In this document: in pieces, positions 11,696 to 47,508 of the stretch
How positions within the stretch are numbered: position 1 is the first letter of the stretch
Layout of the letters: every line of letters starts with the position of its first letter
Assembly: GCA_021780675.1 (NCBI GenBank)
Contig: JAJXYH010000034.1
Span: forward strand, 19,889 to 83,888
Direction: 5' to 3'
Source of the DNA: a bacterium
GTDB lineage: Bacteria > Patescibacteriota > Microgenomatia > Levybacterales > UBA12049
DNA: 64,000 bases
Made by a program: the position numbers and the translations under genes
The notes under the pieces: generated by a model
Told to the model about the DNA's origin: nothing
The model's database searches: none
What the model saw: the letters and a program-made list of their open reading frames with translations, nothing else

Positions 11696-12619
11696 ATGGT
11701 TGAACCGACATTCAAAATTAAAGAAGAAAAGGTAACAGACGAATACGGAATGTTCGTAATTGAGCCGTTAGAACCGGGATTTGGCGCAACTTTAGGAAGC
11801 GCATTAAGAAGGGTTTTATTGGTTTCAATTCCCGGAGCAGCCGTTACCTCAGTTAAAATTAGTGGTGCAAAACACAAATTTGCAACAATCCCCGGACTTA
11901 AAGAAAATGTTGTTGATTTACTTTTAAACATAAAAGGACTTAATTTAAGATTATTAAATTCAAAAGCAGAAAGCACAATAAAGCTTTCCGTAAAAGGTCC
12001 TAAGGAAATTACAGCCGCAGATTTAGAACTCCCAGAGGATGTAGAAGTTGTTAATAAAGACCATTATTTGGGCTTTTTAAGCGATAAAAAAGCGAAATTA
12101 GATATGGAATTAACCGTAGAAAGAGGCTTGGGATATTCCTTAGCAGACGAAAGAAGAATTAATACTTTGGGAGTAATTTCAACAGATGCTGTATTCACAC
12201 CCATTAGAAGAGTAGTTCCTGAAGTTTCTTCAACCAGGGTTGGAAGACAGACAAATTTAGATAAACTTACACTTCAAATTTGGACAAACGGAGTAGTAAA
12301 ACCAAAAGATGCTTTAGATGAAGCAGCAAAGATCCTTTCTGCTTATTTTAAACAAATTTATCAACCTAAAGAGGAAGTTGTTGAAGAATCAACTGTAGCA
12401 CTTACGGGAATTGCAGAAGCAACACTTAGAATGACGGTGGATGAACTTGATTTACCAACAAGAATTTATAATACCTTAAGAAATGGTGGAATTGAAACAA
12501 TCGGCCAGCTTTTAGAAGTTCCAAGAAAAGAATTAATTTCAATGAGAAATATGGGCGGAAAATCACTCGAAATAATTGAAGATAAATTAAAAGAAAAGGG
12601 TATTAGTCTTCAGATTTAA
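11696..12619 (+). CDS. rpoA: DNA-directed RNA polymerase subunit alpha
   Basis: 307 aa with N-terminal dimerisation domain and alpha-CTD (LELSVRTYNTL-like IYNTLRNGGIETIGQL). Confidence 0.9.
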   Translation: MVEPTFKIKEEKVTDEYGMFVIEPLEPGFGATLGSALRRVLLVSIPGAAVTSVKISGAKHKFATIPGLKENVVDLLLNIKGLNLRLLNSKAESTIKLSVKGPKEITAADLELPEDVEVVNKDHYLGFLSDKKAKLDMELTVERGLGYSLADERRINTLGVISTDAVFTPIRRVVPEVSSTRVGRQTNLDKLTLQIWTNGVVKPKDALDEAAKILSAYFKQIYQPKEEVVEESTVALTGIAEATLRMTVDELDLPTRIYNTLRNGGIETIGQLLEVPRKELISMRNMGGKSLEIIEDKLKEKGISLQI

Positions 12620-40079: not shown

Positions 40080-42791
40080 ATGTTAAATATTTTCGGAAAA
40101 TTATTTGATTCGAATGAAAGGGAACTTGATAAAATACTTCCTATTGTTGAAAAAATAAATTCTTTAGAAAAAGAAACTAAAAAATTAAAAGATAAAGATT
40201 TTCCCAAAAAGACCCAGGAGTTTAAAGAAAGATTAGAAGAAGGGGAACCGCTTGAAAATATTCTTCCCGAGGCTTTTGCTTTAGTTAGAGAAGCGTCGTT
40301 TAGAACAATTGGACAAAGACACTACGATGTTCAGCTTGTTGCCGGTATTTCCTTGGCGCTTGGAAAAATTGCCGAACAAAAAACAGGAGAGGGTAAAACA
40401 TTGTCTGCTACTCCCGCATTATATTTACACGCATTAACAGGTAAAAATGTTCATCTTGTTACGGTAAACGACTATTTGGCAAGAAGAGATGTCGGCTGGA
40501 TGGGGCCTATTTTTAATTTTTTAGGTATCACAGTTGCCTCAATAATTAGCGAAGAATCTTTTGTATTTGATATGGATTTTAAAAATAATCAGGTAACGGA
40601 TTATAGGTTAATGCACCTTCGGCCAATAAATAGAAAAGAAGCTTATGAAAAAGATGTTGTTTATGGCATAAACTCCGAATTTGGATTTGATTATTTAAGG
40701 GATAATATGGCGCAGGATTTACAATCTCAAGTTCAGAGGGGCTTTTACTATGCAATTGTCGATGAGGTTGATTCGGTATTAATTGATGAAGCAAGAACTC
40801 CTCATATTATCTCTGCCCCCGATGAAGCACCAACGCAAAAATATTATGAATATGCAAAGCTGGTAGATAAATTAACGCCTGAGATAGATTATAAAATTGA
40901 TGAAAAATTAAGAACAGCCCATTTAACCGAGCACGGGATAGGAAAAATAGAAAAAATTTATGGGGTAGCAAATATCTACGAAAAAGATTTTGATACGGTT
41001 TATCATTTAGAGGCTGCATTAAAAGCACGTACGCTTTTTCATAAAGAGAAAGATTACATTGTAAAAGAGGGCGAAGTAATTTTAGTTGATGAATTTACGG
41101 GTAGACTTATGACCGGAAGAAGGTTATCTGAAGGACTTCATCAGGCAATTGAAGCAAAAGAAGGAGTTTCAATTCAAAAAGAGTCTAAGACATTGGCAAC
41201 AGTTTCCTTGCAGAACTATTTTAGGATGTATGAACGCTTGGCAGGAATGACCGGAACCGCGGTAACAGAAGCAGAGGAGTTTCACAAAATTTATAAACTG
41301 GATGTAGTTGTAATTCCAACACATAAGAATTTAGTTAGAAAGGATTTGGCAGATGCAATTTATAAAACTTCACGGGCAAAATATACAGCAGTCGCAGCCG
41401 AAATTGAACAAGCTCACAAAACCGGACAGCCGGTCTTGGTTGGAACAACCTCGATTGAAAAAAATGAAATCATTGCCGAACTTTTAAAACGAAAGGGCAT
41501 AAAACACGAAGTATTAAATGCTAAGAATCATACAAAAGAAGCAGAGATTATTTCTAAAGCCGGTGAAAAAGGTGCCGTAACAGTTGCAACCAATATGGCG
41601 GGAAGAGGCGTTGATATTATTTTAGGGGGAGAGGCGCCTAAAAATGAAGACGGTACTGACAAAAAAGGAACCAAAGAGTGGGAAGCTTGGGAAAAGCATC
41701 ACAATGAAGTTTTGAGCCTAGGGGGACTTTATGTAATTGGAACGGAAAGACACGAGTCGCGAAGAATAGATAACCAATTAAGAGGAAGGTCAGGTAGGCA
41801 AGGTGATCCCGGTAAATCTCAATTTTTTGTGTCTTTGGATGATGAAATAATGAGGCTTTTTGGTGGCGATACAATATCAGGTCTTATGACCAGGTTTAAT
41901 ATGCCGGAAGATGTGCCGCTTTCCCATCCGTTAGTAACGAGGGCAATAGAACAAGCGCAAATAAAAGTTGAAGGTTATAATTTTGATATCAGGAAACATT
42001 TGGTTGATTACGACGATGTTTTAAATAAGCAAAGGGAAATAATTTACTCAAGAAGACAAAACATTTTACGATCCGATGATAATCCCCAAAAACTAAAATC
42101 GGAAGTATTAGAAAAAATTCATAGCGCAATTTTGGCAAGTGTAACAATGAATTCCGAAAATTATATGCAAACCTCACCTTCAGAAACTATAGCAACGGAA
42201 TTTGCAACGATTATTCCTTTTGATGAAAATTCATTAAATCAAATTAAATCGCAGCTTGAACAATTAACCAGAATTGATCAAAGAGGAGAATTTTTATATG
42301 CGGTTTCCGACGATATTTATAATGCCAGAGAAAAGCAAGTCGGACCGGATATGGCTCGCCAAATCGAAAAATTTGTTTCGCTTTCTGTTATTGATAATCT
42401 TTGGATCGACCATTTGGATGCAATAGATAATTTGCGCCAAGGGATTGGTTTAAGGGGTTACGGTCAAAAAGATCCGCTAGTTGAATATAAAAATGAAGCT
42501 TTTATTATGTTTGAAAAACTTATTAACGGAATAGATGATGAAATTGTACATAGAATTTTTAAAATTTCTGTTCAGGAGCCACCTGAAGTTCATGCGCAGC
42601 ATGCGCATTTGGTTGAACAGGCTGCAGGTTCAAACATTGCTAGTGAAGTATCAACCGGTTCTACGAGTACCGGTTCCGCTGCATCTACAACTGCTAATAG
42701 TTCATCAACGTCTAAGAAAAAACTCGGACGAAACGATCCTTGCTGGTGCGGATCGGGTAAAAAATACAAAAAATGTCATTGGCCTAACTGA
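40080..42791 (+). CDS. secA: preprotein translocase ATPase SecA
   Basis: 903 aa with DEAD-motor motifs and the C-terminal zinc finger CWCGSGKKYKKCH. Confidence 0.95.
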   Translation: MLNIFGKLFDSNERELDKILPIVEKINSLEKETKKLKDKDFPKKTQEFKERLEEGEPLENILPEAFALVREASFRTIGQRHYDVQLVAGISLALGKIAEQKTGEGKTLSATPALYLHALTGKNVHLVTVNDYLARRDVGWMGPIFNFLGITVASIISEESFVFDMDFKNNQVTDYRLMHLRPINRKEAYEKDVVYGINSEFGFDYLRDNMAQDLQSQVQRGFYYAIVDEVDSVLIDEARTPHIISAPDEAPTQKYYEYAKLVDKLTPEIDYKIDEKLRTAHLTEHGIGKIEKIYGVANIYEKDFDTVYHLEAALKARTLFHKEKDYIVKEGEVILVDEFTGRLMTGRRLSEGLHQAIEAKEGVSIQKESKTLATVSLQNYFRMYERLAGMTGTAVTEAEEFHKIYKLDVVVIPTHKNLVRKDLADAIYKTSRAKYTAVAAEIEQAHKTGQPVLVGTTSIEKNEIIAELLKRKGIKHEVLNAKNHTKEAEIISKAGEKGAVTVATNMAGRGVDIILGGEAPKNEDGTDKKGTKEWEAWEKHHNEVLSLGGLYVIGTERHESRRIDNQLRGRSGRQGDPGKSQFFVSLDDEIMRLFGGDTISGLMTRFNMPEDVPLSHPLVTRAIEQAQIKVEGYNFDIRKHLVDYDDVLNKQREIIYSRRQNILRSDDNPQKLKSEVLEKIHSAILASVTMNSENYMQTSPSETIATEFATIIPFDENSLNQIKSQLEQLTRIDQRGEFLYAVSDDIYNAREKQVGPDMARQIEKFVSLSVIDNLWIDHLDAIDNLRQGIGLRGYGQKDPLVEYKNEAFIMFEKLINGIDDEIVHRIFKISVQEPPEVHAQHAHLVEQAAGSNIASEVSTGSTSTGSAASTTANSSSTSKKKLGRNDPCWCGSGKKYKKCHWPN

Positions 42792-43013
42792 TTAGCTTGA
42801 TTTTACAATCTAAATGTTCATTCTCAACGCCTCATAGTCAATTTTTTTTAGCCTCGTAAATTTATGTGATTTTGGATATTTTAAAGACCCCCAAATTTAC
42901 TAAAGGCTTAAGTTTATAACTATCGGTGACCATATGGTTTTAATTTATGTCGTAGAACTCAAGTTGTAAGACTTAATAAAAATAACTATTGACGTGCATT
43001 ATTAAGTAATGAT

Positions 43014-43033
43014 ATATTCGATATATCGAATAT
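43014..43033 (+). promoter_or_regulatory. perfect 20-bp palindromic operator overlapping the ArsR-family gene start
   Basis: ATATTCGATATATCGAATAT ends inside the ATG at 43032. An upstream TTGACG with an extended -10 TGaTATATT gives a promoter. Confidence 0.55.
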
Positions 43034-43526
43034 GTATTACGAAGTATTTCAGTTACATGCTAAGCTTTTAAAAGCTTTATCAAATCCCAAAAGGCTCGAA
43101 ATTATTCAACTAATTAGAGAAGAGGAACTACCAGTTGCAGAAATTCAAGAAATGCTTGATTTACCCCAAGGAAATTTAAGCCAACATTTACAAGTGCTCA
43201 GAGCTGCAGGCATTGTTAAGACAAGACGGGAAGGAAAACAAATTTATTACAGTATTTCCCATAAAAACTTTATTAAAGCAAGCGATTTATTTAGAGAGGT
43301 ATTGATAGAAAGAAATAAAGACGCTGTTTCAGATATAGCTTTTAAAAAAATGGCCGATCTTGTTCCTTTAACTTCAGATCCGGTATGCGGGATGAGAGTA
43401 AGCCCTAAAACTTCGGCGTTTGCTTACAAAAACACTGGGGATGAATTTTATTTCTGCGGTTCAGGATGTTACGAAAGATTCAAGAAATACCCTAAAAAAT
43501 ACATCAGAGCAGTAGCATTCGCTTAA
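43032..43526 (+). CDS. ArsR/SmtB-family transcriptional regulator with C-terminal YHS metal-binding domain
   Basis: ArsR wHTH (LSNPKRLEIIQLI...LSQHLQVLRAAGIV) plus a YHS/TRASH-like DPVCGMRV...YFCGSGCYERF tail. Confidence 0.7.
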   Translation: MYYEVFQLHAKLLKALSNPKRLEIIQLIREEELPVAEIQEMLDLPQGNLSQHLQVLRAAGIVKTRREGKQIYYSISHKNFIKASDLFREVLIERNKDAVSDIAFKKMADLVPLTSDPVCGMRVSPKTSAFAYKNTGDEFYFCGSGCYERFKKYPKKYIRAVAFA

Positions 43527-43530
43527 TTTT

Positions 43531-43884
43531 ATGGACAAAATTATTGTTAGTATTGTTGGCGTAGTTTTTATCGGTTTTATTTACTGGTTTTTCTTAGGAA
43601 AAAGAGAGAAAGGAGTAAAAGCCGAACGTTCCATTGATGTTCTGGTTAAAGGTGGTTATACCCCATCAAAAATTATTATTCCTCAAAATAAAACTACGAC
43701 CATCAATTTTACAAGAGAAGACTCCAATAGCTGTCTTGAAGAAGTTGTCTTGTCTGATTTTAAAATAAGAAAATATCTTCCCATCAATAAAACGGTCAGT
43801 ATACAAATAAATCCATCAAAGAAAGGAGATTTTAATTTTTCCTGTGGAATGGGAATGTTTCACGGAAATTTAATTGTCGAATAA
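43531..43884 (+). CDS. membrane-anchored cupredoxin-like domain protein (paralog of the 46082 gene C-terminus)
   Basis: N-terminal TM helix. The C-terminus YTPSKIIIP...SNSC...[16 protein letters not shown] aligns with the C-terminal domain of the 344-aa protein. Confidence 0.5.
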
Positions 43885-46085
43885 TGGATAATAAAAAAAC
43901 ATATGCGGTAAAAGGAATGCATTGTGCTTCATGCGTAAGGGTTTTAGAAAAAGCAATTGGGAAAGTTGATGGTGTTAAAGAAGTTAGTGTAAATTTAGCA
44001 ACTGAAAAAGCAGCTGTATCTTTTTCGAAGAAAGTAGAAGATCAGGAAATAAAAAATGCCGTACAAAAAGTAGGGTATGGATTAGAAGAAGTAAATGAAG
44101 ACGCCGAAAAAGTTGAAAAACAAAAACAATTAAGTGATTTAAGAAATAAACTTACACTCAGCTTAGTTTTGGGTTTTTTGATCTTTTATGGAAGTTTTCC
44201 AGGTTTAATGAAATTTTCACCTGTGTTACTTCAAAACTTTTTAGTTCAACTTCTCTTATCATTGCCCGTTCAATTTTGGGCAGGACTAAGCTTTTATAAA
44301 GCCGCAATTCCAGCTTTTAAGAATAGGACTGCCAACATGGACACTCTGGTTGCGGTCGGAACATCGGTTGCTTTTTCTTATTCGGTTTTTGTAACTCTTT
44401 TTCCCCAGATTCCAAAATCGATTGGAATAGAGCCAATGCCCTATTTTGACGTTTCAACAATTATTATTGGTTTAATTCTTTTAGGCAGATATTTTGAGGC
44501 AAGAGCTAAAAGCAATACCTCAGAAGCAATTAAAAAGTTAATGGGACTATCTCCCAAAACAGCTAGAGTGATTAGAAATGGAGAAGAATTGGATTTGCCA
44601 ATTAGTGAAGTTATTGTGGGTGATGAAATAAGAGTTAGGCCTGGGGAAAAGATTCCGGTTGACGGAACTATTTTAGAGGGCGAATCTTCAATTGATGAAG
44701 CAATGATTACAGGCGAAAGTATTCCTGTAGATAAACTTAAAGGCGATGTCGTAATTGGTGCGACCATGAATAAGTCAGGAAGCTTTACTTATAAAGCTAC
44801 AAAAGTAGGAAGTGAAACTATGCTCTCACAAATTATAAAACTTGTTCAGGAGGCTCAGGGAAGCAAGGCCCCAATCCAAAGAATTGCCGATTTAATTTCT
44901 TCGTATTTTGTTCCGGTTGTCATAATGCTATCGGTATTAACTTTTGTAATCTGGTATGATTTCGGACCTGTACCGTCATTTTTATTTGCTCTCTTAAACA
45001 TGGTTGCAGTTTTAATTATTGCTTGTCCTTGTGCCATGGGACTTGCAACACCAACGGCCATCATGGTCGGAACGGGTAAGGGAGCGGAAAACGGTATTTT
45101 AATTAAAGATGCGCAGAGTTTAGAATTGGCTCATAAAATAAATGCGATTGTTTTTGATAAAACCGGAACTTTAACAAATGGAAAACCGGAAGTAACTGAT
45201 ATATTAGGAGAAGATAAAAATAAGATTTTAATGTTGGCAGCATCCTTAGAAAAAGGCTCAGAACATTCTCTTGCTACTGCGATTATTCAAAAAGCGGAAA
45301 AAGATAAAGTTAAACTTATTAAAGTTGAAAAATTTCAATCAGTCGTAGGGCATGGTATTCAGGGTGTAATAGCAGGAGAAAAAGTAGTCCTAGGTAATAA
45401 ACGCTTTATGAAAAAAGAAAACATTGATATTTCTAGTTTGGAAAAAGATATAGACCAATTAGAAGAAAGCGGCAAAACAGTAATGATTTTGGCTGTTGAT
45501 GGAAAAGAAGTGGGAGCTATTTCTGTTGCCGATACCCTTAAGGATAGCGCTAAAGAAGGAGTTTCACTTTTGAAGAAGATTGGCATTGAAGTTTTTATGA
45601 TAACCGGTGATAACGAGAAAACAGCAAACGCAATTGCGAAATCGATAGGAATACAAAACGTTTTAGCAGAAGTTTTGCCAAGTCAAAAAGAAGAAGAGGT
45701 CCGAAAAATACAGGCAAAAGGAAAAATTGTTGCAATGGTTGGAGACGGAATAAACGATGCTCCTGCTTTGGCAGCAGCCGACATAGGAATTGCCATGGGA
45801 ACGGGAACAGATGTAGCGATTGAGGCAGCGGATATAACTTTACTAAATAAAGACTTAAAATCAGTTTCGCAATCAATTAATCTCTCGAAAAAAACAATGA
45901 GAACAATAAGACTTAATTTATTTTGGGCATTTGGTTATAACATCGTGTTGATACCTGTTGCGATGGGTTTACTTTATCCGTTTTTTCATCTGTTCCTAAA
46001 TCCTATCTTTGCGTCTCTGGCAATGGCCTTAAGTTCAATATCGGTAGTAACTAATTCACTTACCCTAAAAAGAGTCGCAATATGA
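43884..46085 (+). CDS. copA: copper-translocating P1B-type ATPase
   Basis: N-terminal HMA (GMHCASCV), CPC in TM6, [15 protein letters not shown]; 733 aa. Confidence 0.9.
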
Positions 46086-47116
46086 ATATAACCAGCTTAA
46101 TTTCAATATTTTTAACAGGACTGTTAACAGGCGGTCTTAGCTGCATGGCCGTTCAAGGAGGACTTCTGGCGGCAACATTGGCTCAAAGGGAGGAAGAAAG
46201 ACTGAAGAGCAATTTAAAAAGTGGCGGTAATGCTATACCAATTATCTCGTTTTTAGTTGCAAAATTGGTTGCTTATACGATTCTAGGATTTTTGTTGGGT
46301 TCATTAGGTTCTGTATTCCAATTGTCGTTATCTTTAAAAGTTATTATGCAAATCGCAGTAAGTATTTTTATGCTTGGGACTGCTTTTAATATTTTAGATG
46401 TTCATCCTATTTTTCGATATTTTGTAATCCAACCCCCTAAATTTCTAACAAGACTTGTTAGAAAACAATCCAAGAGTCAGGATGTTTTTGCTCCGGCTAT
46501 CTTAGGATCCCTTACCATTTTTATCCCTTGCGGTATTACGCAGGGAATGATGGCTTTAGCCATAGGGTCAGGTAGTCCTTTATCGGGGGCATTGATACTT
46601 TTTGCATTTATTCTTGGTACATCACCCATATTTTTTGTGTTGGGATACTTTGCAACAAAGCTCGGAGATATATTCCAGCAAAGATTTATGAAAATTGTAG
46701 CTTTTGCAATCATTTTCCTGGCAATATTTAACATCAATAATGCAATTACCTTAAGTGGAGTTAAGCTTCCATTTGGTGATATAGCTAAAAATGTTTGGTG
46801 CACATTTACTATATGCGACAATGTTACTTCGGGAACTAATGTTGCAATAAACAATAGTCCTACGATTACTATTGGAGCTGTAAGTTATACCCCAAATATT
46901 ATAAGTGTAAAAGCAGGAGCACGGGTAAAATTGAAGCTTGTGAACACAGAGGGAACAAGTTGTATTCAGGCCTTTACAATACCTAGCTTAGGATTGCAAA
47001 AAATAGTTCGTCCCGGAACATCTGATGAATTAGATTTTATAGCCCCAAGTACACCTGGACAAATTCCATTCATGTGTAGTATGGGAATGTTTAAGGGGGT
47101 GATTAACGTACTATGA
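46082..47116 (+). CDS. CcdA/DsbD_2-like polytopic membrane protein fused to a C-terminal cupredoxin-like domain
   Basis: TM Cys motifs LSCMAV and [16 protein letters not shown] resemble CcdA TM1/TM4. The C-terminal domain YTPNIISV...GTSC...[14 protein letters not shown] is paralogous to the 43531 protein. Confidence 0.5.
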
Positions 47117-47331
47117 TAAAGAAAGTTTTTAAAATAAAAGGAATGCATTGCACTAGTTGTGCAATAAATATAGACGGAGAGTTAGAGGATACAGATGGAG
47201 TAAAACAAGCTAATACTAATTATGCAAAGGTTATTACTGAGGTTGAATTTGACCCAAAAAAAATAAATGAAGAGCAAATTGTGAAGTTAATTAAAAAGGT
47301 TGGTTATGATGCTGCTCTAGTAACAAATTAA
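47113..47331 (+). CDS. copZ: copper chaperone CopZ (HMA domain)
   Basis: 72 aa with GMHCTSCA and a ferredoxin-like fold. Confidence 0.85.
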   Translation: MIKKVFKIKGMHCTSCAINIDGELEDTDGVKQANTNYAKVITEVEFDPKKINEEQIVKLIKKVGYDAALVTN

Positions 47332-47470: not shown

Positions 47471-47482
47471 AATGAAAAATAG

Positions 47483-47508
47483 TGGCTAATCGCCACCTTT
47501 TTTATTTG
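47483..47508 (+). terminator. rho-independent terminator after copZ and repeat A
   Basis: GTGGC-TAAT-CGCCAC followed by CTTTTTTATTT. Confidence 0.6.

What the first reader, a model, noticed from the sequence alone, without database searches (positions are those of the whole stretch)
43000..43526. ArsR-YHS fusion regulator with a perfect 20-bp palindromic operator overlapping its own start codon
ATATTCGATATATCGAATAT (43014-43033) ends in the ATG of an ArsR-family regulator. The regulator carries a C-terminal YHS-type metal-binding module (DPVCGMRV...FCGSGC). It heads a copper-efflux operon. An autoregulatory metal sensor built from an ArsR HTH and a YHS sensing domain is an unusual architecture. 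Copper sensors are usually CsoR, CopY or CueR.
Basis: partly seen in the sequence, partly recalled or inferred. Interest (0 to 1): 0.55.

Follow-up and report, generated by a model that had tools for sequence, protein, structure and literature searches.

The report
ArsR–YHS copper repressor and its operator
A small DNA-binding repressor fused to a metal-binding YHS domain sits on a palindrome covering its own promoter and start codon. It most likely switches on a copper-export operon when copper rises. The same design recurs across the uncultured Patescibacteria and has not been studied.

Summary
ATATTCGATATATCGAATAT (43014-43033) is a perfect 20-bp palindrome, unique in the window. Its last two bases are the AT of the ATG of a 164-aa protein with an ArsR/SmtB winged helix (aa 1-94) and a YHS domain (aa 114-162, above Pfam's cut-off).

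The gene heads a tightly packed operon: cupredoxin, Cu(I)-type CopA, DsbD_2-cupredoxin membrane protein, CopZ.

Comparative evidence supports the interpretation. In 80 related genomic loci (43-87% identical regulators, where named mostly Patescibacteria), ATATTC-N8-GAATAT lies at the regulator's start in 70. In 58 it sits in the identical register with the ATG. There are 94 sites in 789 kb, against about 5 in shuffles. A conserved TTGACA-17/18-TATATT promoter overlaps the site.

The same promoter-operator-ATG cassette precedes other metal or thiol-redox envelope genes in relatives.

The conserved element is a 6-8-bp-arm inverted repeat. The perfect 20-mer is a local peculiarity.

All cysteines lie in the YHS domain. 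The putative ligands D116, C119, C142 and C146 are invariant. The classical ArsR metal sites are absent.

Most likely this is a Cu(I)-released autorepressor. It works like archaeal CopR (Lrp+TRASH) but is not a member of that family. No paper describes it. Binding and metal specificity remain untested.

The parts
42989..42994 (+). -35 box TTGACG
   Evidence: Promoter scan gives TTGACG-18-TATATT, 10 of 12 matches, with TG before the -10. In relatives TTGACA sits at -42/-43 from the ATG in 30 of the 32 loci that have G at -12 and a clear -35 box.
43010..43018 (+). Extended -10 box TGaTATATT (hexamer 43013-43018), lying in the left arm of the operator
   Evidence: TATATT at -19..-14 is the majority sequence in relatives. 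The transcription start inferred at about 43025 would leave a leader of about 6-7 nt with no Shine-Dalgarno motif. This start is inferred, not mapped.
43014..43033 (.). Operator: perfect 20-bp palindrome ATATTCGATATATCGAATAT. The conserved core is ATATTCG-N6-CGAATAT. The last AT is the first two bases of the start codon.
   Evidence: Unique in the window, 0 of 100 shuffles. Conserved in 70 of 80 related loci, and in the identical register in 58. Outer 6 bp of each arm are about 95-100% conserved, while the centre varies.
43032..43526 (+). Regulator gene, 164 aa (ArsR-YHS fusion)
   Evidence: ORF; Pfam; NCBIfam NF033788, 91.6 bits against a cut-off of 55; AlphaFold2 model with pLDDT 87.9.
43032..43313 (+). 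ArsR/SmtB winged-helix domain, aa 1-94 (a1-a2-a3-aR-b1-b2-a5). Recognition helix PQGNLSQHLQVLR.
   Evidence: Secondary structure. Foldseek TM-score normalised to target is 0.80-0.86 to Rv0081, HlyU, NolR, SqrR and CzrA. Q46, N48, L49, S50, Q51, H52 and L53 are invariant. The domain contains no cysteine (translation).
43314..43370 (+). Linker, aa 95-113, lower model confidence
   Evidence: pLDDT is 71-80 in this block. Length and sequence vary in the alignment, except M107, L110 and P112.
43371..43517 (+). YHS domain, aa 114-162, with putative ligands D116, C119, C142, C146 (plus invariant M121)
   Evidence: PF04945 at 44.6 bits against a cut-off of 30.3. These residues are invariant in 53 sequences. 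The D-x2-C...C-x3-C ligand set is the one proposed for YHS domains in PMC4626032.
43531..43884 (+). Membrane-anchored cupredoxin-like protein, 117 aa
   Evidence: Cupredoxin_1, 77.3 bits. Starts 4 nt after the regulator's stop codon.
43884..46085 (+). CopA, a P1B-1 Cu(I)/Ag(I)-exporting ATPase, 733 aa
   Evidence: HMA + E1-E2_ATPase + Hydrolase. TIGR01511 at 658 bits. MHCASC, CPC, N-x6-YN-x4-P and M-x2-SS motifs are visible in the translation.
46082..47116 (+). DsbD_2 membrane domain fused to a C-terminal cupredoxin-like domain, 344 aa
   Evidence: DsbD_2 at 107.9 bits and Cupredoxin_1 at 49.3 bits. Follows CopA, or lies between the regulator and CopA, in roughly 35 related loci.
47113..47331 (+). 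CopZ-type copper chaperone, 72 aa (MHCTSC)
   Evidence: HMA at 52.1 bits. CopZ models also match but below their cut-offs.
47482..47506 (+). Terminator-like hairpin plus T-run after copZ; probable operon end
   Evidence: GTGGCTAATCGCCAC followed by CTTTTTTATT. This is a consensus match only.

Best explanation
This is an autoregulated, metal-released repressor of a copper-efflux operon.

Repression (inferred). A dimer of the 164-aa ArsR-family protein binds the inverted repeat ATATTCG-N6-CGAATAT through its invariant recognition helix (PQGNLSQHL). The site covers the -10 box, the likely transcription start and the first two bases of the start codon. Bound repressor therefore excludes RNA polymerase from the single promoter. 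That promoter drives regulator, cupredoxin, copA, dsbD_2-cupredoxin and copZ.

Induction (inferred). When cytoplasmic Cu(I), and probably Ag(I), rises, it is bound by the C-terminal YHS domain through D116, C119, C142 and C146, possibly also M121. This lowers DNA affinity allosterically, and the operon and the regulator itself are derepressed.

Shown here: the domain identities, the invariance of the ligand set, the absence of the classical ArsR metal sites, the conservation and register of operator and promoter, and the copper nature of the controlled genes.

Inferred: DNA binding by this protein, the metal identity, the direction of the allosteric switch and the transcription start.
For: 1. 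Operator
- The palindrome is unique in the window, with 0 of 100 shuffles matching.
- ATATTC-N8-GAATAT (<=1 mismatch) lies within -60..+5 of the regulator's ATG in 70 of 80 related loci. There are 94 sites in 789 kb, against 2-8 in 20 shuffles.
- The register with the ATG is identical in 58 loci.
- The flanking intergenic sequence is not conserved apart from the -35 box.

2. Promoter overlap
- The promoter reads TTGACA-17/18-TATATT, with the -10 inside the left arm.
- In a subgroup the -35 sits 7 bp closer to the ATG. The left-arm hexamer then reads CATATT, and a TAnnnT box appears in the operator spacer.
- The operator therefore covers the -10 in both layouts.

3. Regulon coherence
- About half of the loci show REG-CopA-DsbD_2/cupredoxin-CopZ synteny.
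- Others carry DUF1573, DUF305, DsbD-like genes and a CPH-type HMBD ATPase.
- Extra copies of the same promoter-operator-ATG cassette precede DsbA-like, DUF1573, cupredoxin, DsbD-like, DUF411 and SHOCT genes.

4. Sensor
- YHS scores above Pfam's cut-off.
- D116, C119, M121, C142 and C146 are invariant.
- The ArsR domain has no cysteine.
- A YHS domain conferred copper responsiveness on an adenylyl cyclase (PMC4626032).
- A TRASH domain contributes to copper sensing in archaeal CopR (PMC7830388).

5. Fold
- The AlphaFold2 model has pLDDT 87.9 and a canonical ArsR topology.
- It matches solved ArsR-family repressors.
Against: - There is no experimental datum for any member of this family.
- The transcription start is not mapped.
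- The YHS domain of toluene-4-monooxygenase binds no metal in its crystal. Metal binding by the YHS domains of ATPases has not been demonstrated (PMC4626032).
- The adenylyl-cyclase YHS responded to added Cu2+, not demonstrably to Cu(I).
- The closest solved relatives of the DNA-binding domain (HlyU, BigR, SqrR, Rv0081, NolR) are not metal sensors.
- The nearest genomic relatives, L001 and L002 (87% and 80% identity), have no CopA within the stretch held.
- About 10 of 80 loci lack the site at the regulator start. It lies further upstream in L009, L055, L065 and L079, and only downstream of the regulator in L040. L020 is N-masked and L063 is cut by the contig end. None was found in L057 and L066.
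Confidence: 0.72

Rival explanations
1. Same repressor and operator, but the YHS domain is a structural zinc ribbon, or it senses something other than copper. Candidates are Zn/Cd/Hg, or thiol oxidation or persulfidation of its three cysteines, as in the BigR/SqrR/HlyU relatives.
For: - The DNA-binding domain is closest to non-metal, cysteine-redox ArsR members: BigR model at 71.7 bits, and HlyU and SqrR among the top structures.
- L24e TRASH binds Cd/Zn structurally.
- Extra operator sites precede DsbA- and DsbD-like thiol-redox genes.
- The metal was not tested.
Against: - The controlled transporter here is a P1B-1 Cu(I) ATPase with a CopZ chaperone.
- Synteny with CopA holds across about half of the loci.
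- The BigR equivalog model is far below its cut-off (71.7 against 155).
- The BigR/SqrR sensing cysteines lie in the ArsR core, which here has no cysteine.
Confidence: 0.13
2. The palindrome acts as an RNA hairpin that hides the start codon, as translational control or attenuation, rather than as a protein-binding operator.
For: As RNA, 43005-43075 folds with the palindrome as a 15-pair hairpin enclosing the AUG (-15 kcal/mol, z = -2.5).
Against: - The conserved promoter places the -10 inside the left arm, so the transcript would lack that arm.
- Conservation is of sequence, not of pairing. Arm positions are near-invariant.
- Position 7 changes G to T or A on one side without compensation in 15 of 59 operators.
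- Central pair 9/12 is A·A in 37 of 59.
- No Rfam family matches.
Confidence: 0.03
3. The palindrome is the operator of a different transcription factor encoded elsewhere, or the ArsR-YHS protein activates rather than represses.
For: No binding experiment links this protein to this site. HlyU-type ArsR proteins are described as activators (molecule names).
Against: - The site co-occurs with this gene in 70 of 80 loci across 43-87% protein identity.
- The recognition helix and the half-sites are both near-invariant.
- A site covering the -10 and the transcription start is geometrically a repressor site.
Confidence: 0.04
4. A chance palindrome in AT-rich intergenic DNA.
For: The window is 34% G+C. 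Short AT-rich inverted repeats are common nearby.
Against: None of 100 shuffles gave any match even at 3 mismatches. The site is conserved in 70 of 80 related loci, against about 5 chance sites in 789 kb.
Confidence: 0.01

Closest known systems
ArsR/SmtB metalloregulators (SmtB, CzrA, CadC, NmtR, CmtR; the Cu(I)-responsive BxmR, cited from my own knowledge)
   Same: The winged-helix fold is the same and the family models match above cut-off. The gene is first in the metal-efflux operon it presumably represses. The operator is an inverted repeat over the promoter.
   Different: The sensory ligands are not built into the scaffold. The ArsR domain has no cysteine and none of the classical ligand sets. 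Only three histidines, H9, H52 and H77, are conserved there. The only cysteines sit in a separate YHS domain, joined by a linker of about 20 aa. No solved chain covers both domains (TM-score normalised to query <=0.55).
Archaeal CopR/CopT (Sulfolobus, Thermococcus, Pyrococcus PF0739): HTH + TRASH copper regulator next to copA
   Same: An N-terminal wHTH is combined with a C-terminal TRASH/YHS-type cysteine domain. The gene is adjacent to copA, and the binding motif is semi-palindromic (PMC7830388). This is the best functional analogue.
   Different: [quoted passage not shown] The present protein is ArsR-type, with no Lrp effector or oligomerisation domain hit. It presumably binds as a dimer on one 20-bp site over a bacterial -10. 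The similarity is convergent domain fusion, not membership.
YHS-domain adenylyl cyclase of Mycobacterium phlei
   Same: A C-terminal YHS domain with the D-x2-C...C-x3-C pattern acts as a copper-responsive regulatory module for the N-terminal output domain (PMC4626032).
   Different: The output there is cAMP synthesis, not DNA binding. The linker is 8-11 aa. The response was shown with Cu2+.
CsoR, CopY and CueR, the usual bacterial copper sensors
   Same: They have the same physiological role: Cu(I)-dependent control of copA/copZ.
   Different: The folds are unrelated. No match to their Pfam families was seen among the regulator's hits.
HlyU / BigR / SqrR / Rv0081 / NolR, the nearest solved ArsR-family structures
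   Same: They give the best sequence and structure matches for aa 5-95 (33-38% identity, TM-score normalised to target 0.80-0.86).
   Different: They have about 95-118 aa and no C-terminal domain. They sense persulfide or redox state through core cysteines, or nothing known. The equivalog models are far below cut-off here.

Membership tests
ArsR/SmtB family | Sequence match to family HMMs above curated cut-offs | tested here: met
   HTH_5 at 50.2 bits (cut-off 22) and HTH_20 at 47.2 (cut-off 27). NF033788 at 91.6 (cut-off 55).
ArsR/SmtB family | a1-a2-a3-aR-b1-b2-a5 winged-helix fold | tested here: met
   The AlphaFold2 model shows helices 2-16, 19-27, 35-42 and 46-58, strands 62-67 and 70-75, and helix 78-94. 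Foldseek TM-score normalised to target is up to 0.86 to Rv0081, NolR, HlyU and CzrA. This is a prediction, not a solved structure.
ArsR/SmtB family | Homodimer binding an inverted-repeat operator at its own promoter | tested here: inconclusive
   A conserved inverted repeat over the -10 and start codon is found in 70 of 80 loci. Dimerisation and binding are not testable in silico here.
ArsR/SmtB family | Metal ligands within the scaffold (a3N Cys motif, a5 His/Asp/Glu site and others) | tested here: not met
   There is no cysteine in aa 1-113. There is no cluster of His/Asp/Glu at a5 beyond the single H77. This feature is not required for family membership, since many members lack it. It shows that the sensor must lie elsewhere.
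YHS / TRASH domain | Match to PF04945 above the gathering score | tested here: met
   44.6 bits against 30.3, aa 115-159. The same precomputed domain is present in most of the top 120 homologues.
YHS / TRASH domain | Ligand pattern D/C-x2-C ... C-x3-C | tested here: met
   D116-P-V-C119 ... C142-G-S-G-C146, invariant in 53 sequences. The pattern is as defined in PMC4626032.
YHS / TRASH domain | Binds a transition-metal ion | not testable with these tools
   Needs metal titration of purified protein.
Archaeal CopR/CopT (Lrp/AsnC + TRASH) | Lrp/AsnC-type HTH plus an Lrp-like oligomerisation core forming octamers | tested here: not met
   The best HTH models are ArsR-type. HTH_24 is only marginal (22.7 against 21.9) and there is no AsnC effector-domain hit. 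CopR features are taken from PMC7830388.
Archaeal CopR/CopT (Lrp/AsnC + TRASH) | C-terminal Cys-rich TRASH-type sensor and adjacency to copA | tested here: met
   YHS lies at the C-terminus. copA is two genes downstream in the same operon. REG-CopA synteny holds in about half of the related loci.
CsoR / CopY / CueR | Match to the respective Pfam families | tested here: not met
   None appears among the 14 families hit at E<=0.01.
P1B-1 Cu(I) ATPase (for the controlled transporter) | CPC in TM6, N-x6-YN-x4-P in TM7, M-x2-SS in TM8, N-terminal MxCxxC (classification from my own knowledge) | tested here: met
   [26 protein letters not shown] and GMHCASC are in the translation. TIGR01511 scores 658 bits against a cut-off of 397.

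The most novel reading that the evidence does not exclude
The ArsR-YHS protein is the principal copper sensor of a large part of the Patescibacteria (CPR). It would be a mechanistically distinct class of bacterial Cu(I) sensor. A free-standing YHS module, possibly loaded by the operon's CopZ, would allosterically release an otherwise ligand-less ArsR dimer. It would act through a portable promoter-operator-start-codon cassette that produces leaderless or near-leaderless mRNAs, and the cassette would define a small copper and envelope-thiol regulon.
Probability: 0.45. Interest if true: 0.65.

Novelty: new variant of a known kind. Interest (0 to 1): 0.5.

Why it matters
Regulation in Patescibacteria/CPR is almost unexplored because these bacteria are not grown in pure culture. 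This case offers a regulator, its operator, its promoter and a coherent regulon, all read from sequence alone. All of it can be tested in vitro or in a heterologous host.

It would provide a direct test of the long-standing but thinly supported proposal that YHS/TRASH domains are copper sensors. It would add a modular design (scaffold plus grafted sensor) to the ArsR family, whose known sensors place ligands within the scaffold. It would also be a bacterial counterpart, reached by convergence, of archaeal CopR.

The very strict operator consensus also makes a handy marker for predicting copper-responsive genes in these genomes.

Tried and rejected
1. None was found. The 20-mer, its 14-bp core and ATATTC-N8-GAATAT give only chance-level hits elsewhere. 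The operon genes abut or overlap, so one promoter/operator suffices.
2. The second inverted repeat, ACTTAATAA/TTATTAAGT, flanking the -35 box (42971-43007). It is not conserved in relatives and was treated as chance.
3. The RNA-hairpin reading. It was rejected on promoter position and on the lack of compensatory change.
4. Known RNA families in 42600-43700. None was found.
5. A search with the YHS part alone, to list other architectures.
7. The invariant Tyr2 (ATG TAT) as an operator extension. This was rejected. Other genes behind the same cassette have ATGAAT or ATGTCT.
8. The distant hit P0261 (30% identity). It lies after a ferric-reductase gene and carries only a YHS annotation. It was not pursued and is not counted as a family member.

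Full report
**Observation**

The sequence at 43014-43033 reads ATATTCGATATATCGAATAT. It is a perfect 20-bp palindrome. It is the only match in the 64-kb window even when 3 mismatches are allowed, and none of 100 dinucleotide-preserving shuffles produced one. Its last two bases are the A and T of the ATG at 43032.

That ATG is the first start after an in-frame stop. The encoded N-terminus 'MY' is invariant or nearly so among homologues, so the start codon is right. Longer N-termini in some database entries and mechanical ORFs ('...DIFEISNMY...') are simply the operator translated.

**The protein**

The 164-aa product matches the ArsR models HTH_5 (50.2 bits, cut-off 22) and HTH_20 (47.2, cut-off 27). 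It also matches the YHS model PF04945 at aa 115-159 (44.6, cut-off 30.3), and NCBIfam's ArsR/SmtB metalloregulator model (91.6, cut-off 55).

An AlphaFold2 model built on 53 sequences has mean pLDDT 87.9. It shows the canonical a1-a2-a3-aR-b-hairpin-a5 topology for aa 1-94, a less confident linker (95-113) and a small C-terminal domain with two b-strands followed by two helices.

Foldseek against the PDB returns ArsR-family repressors (Rv0081, HlyU, SqrR, NolR, CzrA, SmtB). The TM-score is 0.80-0.86 normalised to the target, but at most 0.55 normalised to the query. No solved chain therefore contains both domains. A profile search of PDB sequences says the same.

The ArsR domain has no cysteine and none of the classical a3N or a5 ligand sets (translation). 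The three cysteines of the protein, together with D116 and M121, sit in the YHS domain and are invariant. D116-x2-C119...C142-x3-C146 is exactly the ligand pattern proposed for YHS domains (PMC4626032).

**The operon**

The downstream genes are:
- a membrane-anchored cupredoxin-like protein (43531-43884);
- a P-type ATPase (43884-46085);
- a DsbD_2 membrane domain fused to a cupredoxin-like domain (46082-47116);
- an HMA chaperone (47113-47331).

They are separated by 4 nt or overlap. A terminator-like hairpin follows at 47482.

The ATPase carries MHCASC, CPC, N-x6-YN-x4-P and M-x2-SS. By the accepted classification (my own knowledge) this marks a P1B-1 Cu(I)/Ag(I) exporter. The copper-ATPase model TIGR01511 scores 658 bits against a cut-off of 397.

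**Promoter**

A TTGACG-18-TATATT promoter with an upstream TG scores 10 of 12. Its -10 hexamer (43013-43018) lies in the left arm of the palindrome. The ATG follows 13 nt later with no Shine-Dalgarno motif. The transcript would therefore carry a leader of only about 6-7 nt. This is inferred; the start is not mapped.

**Comparative evidence**

A protein search found 1215 hits. The best 120 are 62-91% identical, and nearly all carry HTH_20, HTH_5 and YHS. Where a name is given, it points to Patescibacteria: Roizman- and Levybacteria, Microgenomates and Paceibacterota.

An exhaustive search of 50%-identity representatives lists about 40 clusters that align over both domains. The named members among the distant ones are again Microgenomates/Collierbacteria.

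A scan of one genome per species returned 80 loci with 43-87% identity. I extracted the upstream regions.
- ATATTC-N8-GAATAT with at most 1 mismatch lies within -60..+5 of the regulator's ATG in 70 of 80 loci.
- In all there are 94 sites in 789 kb, against 2-8 in 20 block shuffles.
- In 58 loci the register is exactly that of the window, with the palindrome ending in the AT of the ATG.

The remaining loci fall into three groups:
- the site lies further upstream, ahead of a preceding gene or a longer leader (L009, L055, L065, L079), or only downstream of the regulator (L040);
- the sequence is masked or truncated (L020, L063);
- no site was found (L057, L066).

The in-register consensus is TTGACA-N17-TATATTCGAAATATCGAATATG. 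The outer six positions of each arm are about 95-100% conserved. The surrounding intergenic DNA is not conserved, apart from the -35 box. The conservation figures for the arm positions are partly inflated, because those loci were selected on the motif. The count of 70 of 80 is not.

**Refinements**

1. The conserved unit is a 6-8-bp-arm inverted repeat. Only the window and L062 have a perfect 20-mer. Central pair 9/12 is A·A in 37 of 59 operators. Position 7 changes on one side only in 15 of 59. This pattern is conservation of sequence, not of pairing. It fits a protein site and argues against an RNA hairpin, although the RNA could fold. No Rfam family matches.

2. There are two promoter layouts.
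   - With G at -12 and TATATT at -19..-14, the -35 box sits at -42/-43. This holds for 30 of the 32 such loci that have a clear -35 box, and for the window.
   - With T at -12, the left hexamer reads CATATT and a TAnnnT box appears in the operator spacer at -12..-7. The -35 box then moves to -35/-36 in 10 of 16 such loci. That predicts a truly leaderless mRNA.
   - In both layouts the operator covers the -10 box.

3. The promoter-operator-ATG cassette is portable. Extra copies precede other genes, in several cases in the same register with that gene's ATG:
   - a DsbA-like thioredoxin (L048, L051);
   - a 312-319-aa protein with a CC-D-N...D-C-N-H-G motif and no Pfam family (L009);
   - DUF1573 proteins (L015, L040, L054);
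   - a cupredoxin (L040);
   - a DsbD-like protein (L060);
   - a SHOCT membrane protein (L079);
   - DUF411 (L080).
   They also show that the ATG overlap is a property of the cassette, not of the regulator's coding sequence.

**Synteny**

About half of the loci have REG-CopA-DsbD_2/cupredoxin-CopZ, as in the window. Many others have REG followed by DUF1573, the CC-D-N protein, a DsbD-like protein, DUF305, DUF5676 and an HMBD-type ATPase with a CPH motif (L008).

The identical regulator is found on 7 metagenomic contigs with the same SecA-REG-cupredoxin-CopA order.

**Mechanism**

The best-supported reading is a classical ArsR-type autorepressor whose sensor has been outsourced to a fused YHS domain. 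The apo dimer occupies the inverted repeat over the -10 and transcription start. Cu(I), and probably Ag(I), bound by D116/C119/C142/C146 lowers DNA affinity and derepresses the operon.

The direction of the switch follows from two points. The site occludes the core promoter, and the controlled genes export copper.

How the YHS domain communicates with the winged helix is unknown. It might pair across the dimer or dock onto the DNA-binding face. The invariant H9, H77 and M107 are candidates for an interdomain contribution, but that is speculation.

**Comparison with the known**

The protein is a member of the ArsR/SmtB family by sequence and predicted fold. It carries a bona fide YHS domain.

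It works like archaeal CopR, which is also a winged-helix-plus-TRASH copper regulator next to copA. It is not a member of that family, however. CopR is an Lrp/AsnC-type octamer that wraps DNA and also activates (PMC7830388).

It is unrelated to CsoR, CopY and CueR.

Full-text searches for ArsR together with 'YHS domain', 'TRASH domain' or YHS found no paper describing such a fusion. The ArsR/TRASH co-mentions examined concern separate genes in Sulfolobus mer operons. Annotation pipelines do label the two domains.

**Verdict**

'Unusual' should be tempered. This is a widespread, auto-annotated but uncharacterised subfamily, apparently confined to Patescibacteria, and it has an archaeal analogue. 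I rate it a new variant of a known kind, with interest 0.5.

Noticed in passing
window, whole (e.g. starts at 11696, 17328, 18569, 21872, 27536(-), 50812): Only 13 of 54 long ORFs have a Shine-Dalgarno-like motif. Many first genes have a TAnAAT-like box, often with TG upstream, ending 6-9 nt before the ATG. This suggests that leaderless mRNAs are common in this 34% G+C genome.
   Followed up: partly
L018, L025, L026, L034, L056, L058, L061, L062, L064, L073 (upstream of the regulator start): In this subgroup the -35 box lies 7 bp closer to the ATG. The operator's left hexamer reads CATATT and the operator spacer itself is a TAnnnT -10 box. This predicts a transcript that starts at the A of the ATG.
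   Followed up: yes
L002:6506-7444, L008:7001-7936, L009:5039 onward: A conserved 311-319-aa membrane-anchored protein has the motif R-P-C-C-x-N-x-T-x-F-x-D-C-N-H-G and ends in G-S-C-G/S-A/V. It has no Pfam family. It lies next to the regulator, or directly behind its own copy of the operator in L009. It may be an unknown copper or thiol-stress protein.
   Followed up: partly
L048:4488, L051:4489, L060:4742, L015:2041, L040:6536 and 9428, L054:269/300, L079:1186, L080:5955: Additional copies of the operator, mostly with their own TTGACA promoter. They precede DsbA-like, DsbD-like, DUF1573, cupredoxin, SHOCT and DUF411 genes, in several cases in register with that gene's ATG. This points to a small regulon beyond copA.
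   Followed up: yes
P0040; ORFs L002:5959-6477 and L008:5959-6486: Some gene calls extend the regulator upstream to a TTG or ATG, giving '...(D)IFE(I/L)SNMY...'. The extension is the operator sequence translated, so it is an annotation artefact.
   Followed up: yes
Record titles of L002, L007, L009, L012, L015, L023, L026, L028, L033, L037, L038, L040 and others: About 23 of the 80 genome records are titled 'uncultured Gammaproteobacteria' or 'Pseudomonadales' (one 'Rikenellaceae'). Their loci are nevertheless continuous in sequence, operator and synteny with named Patescibacteria. L009's contig is 804 kb, a typical CPR genome size. The labels are probably placeholders or errors.
   Followed up: no
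window 42971-42979 / 42999-43007: A 9-bp perfect inverted repeat, ACTTAATAA/TTATTAAGT, brackets the -35 box. It is not conserved in relatives.
   Followed up: partly
window 43062-43077: A 16-bp perfect palindrome, AAGCTTTTAAAAGCTT (two HindIII sites), lies inside the regulator's coding sequence. It overlaps the codons for the conserved KLLKAL. It is probably a by-product of the coding sequence.
   Followed up: no
L008:11725-12078: A second, small ArsR-type gene (117 aa, no YHS domain) follows the CPH-type ATPase in the alternative operon type.
   Followed up: no
L085:4990-5502 (protein P0261): A distant relative (30% identity, 170 aa, only YHS recorded) sits directly after a ferric-reductase-like gene, not in a copper operon.
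   Followed up: no
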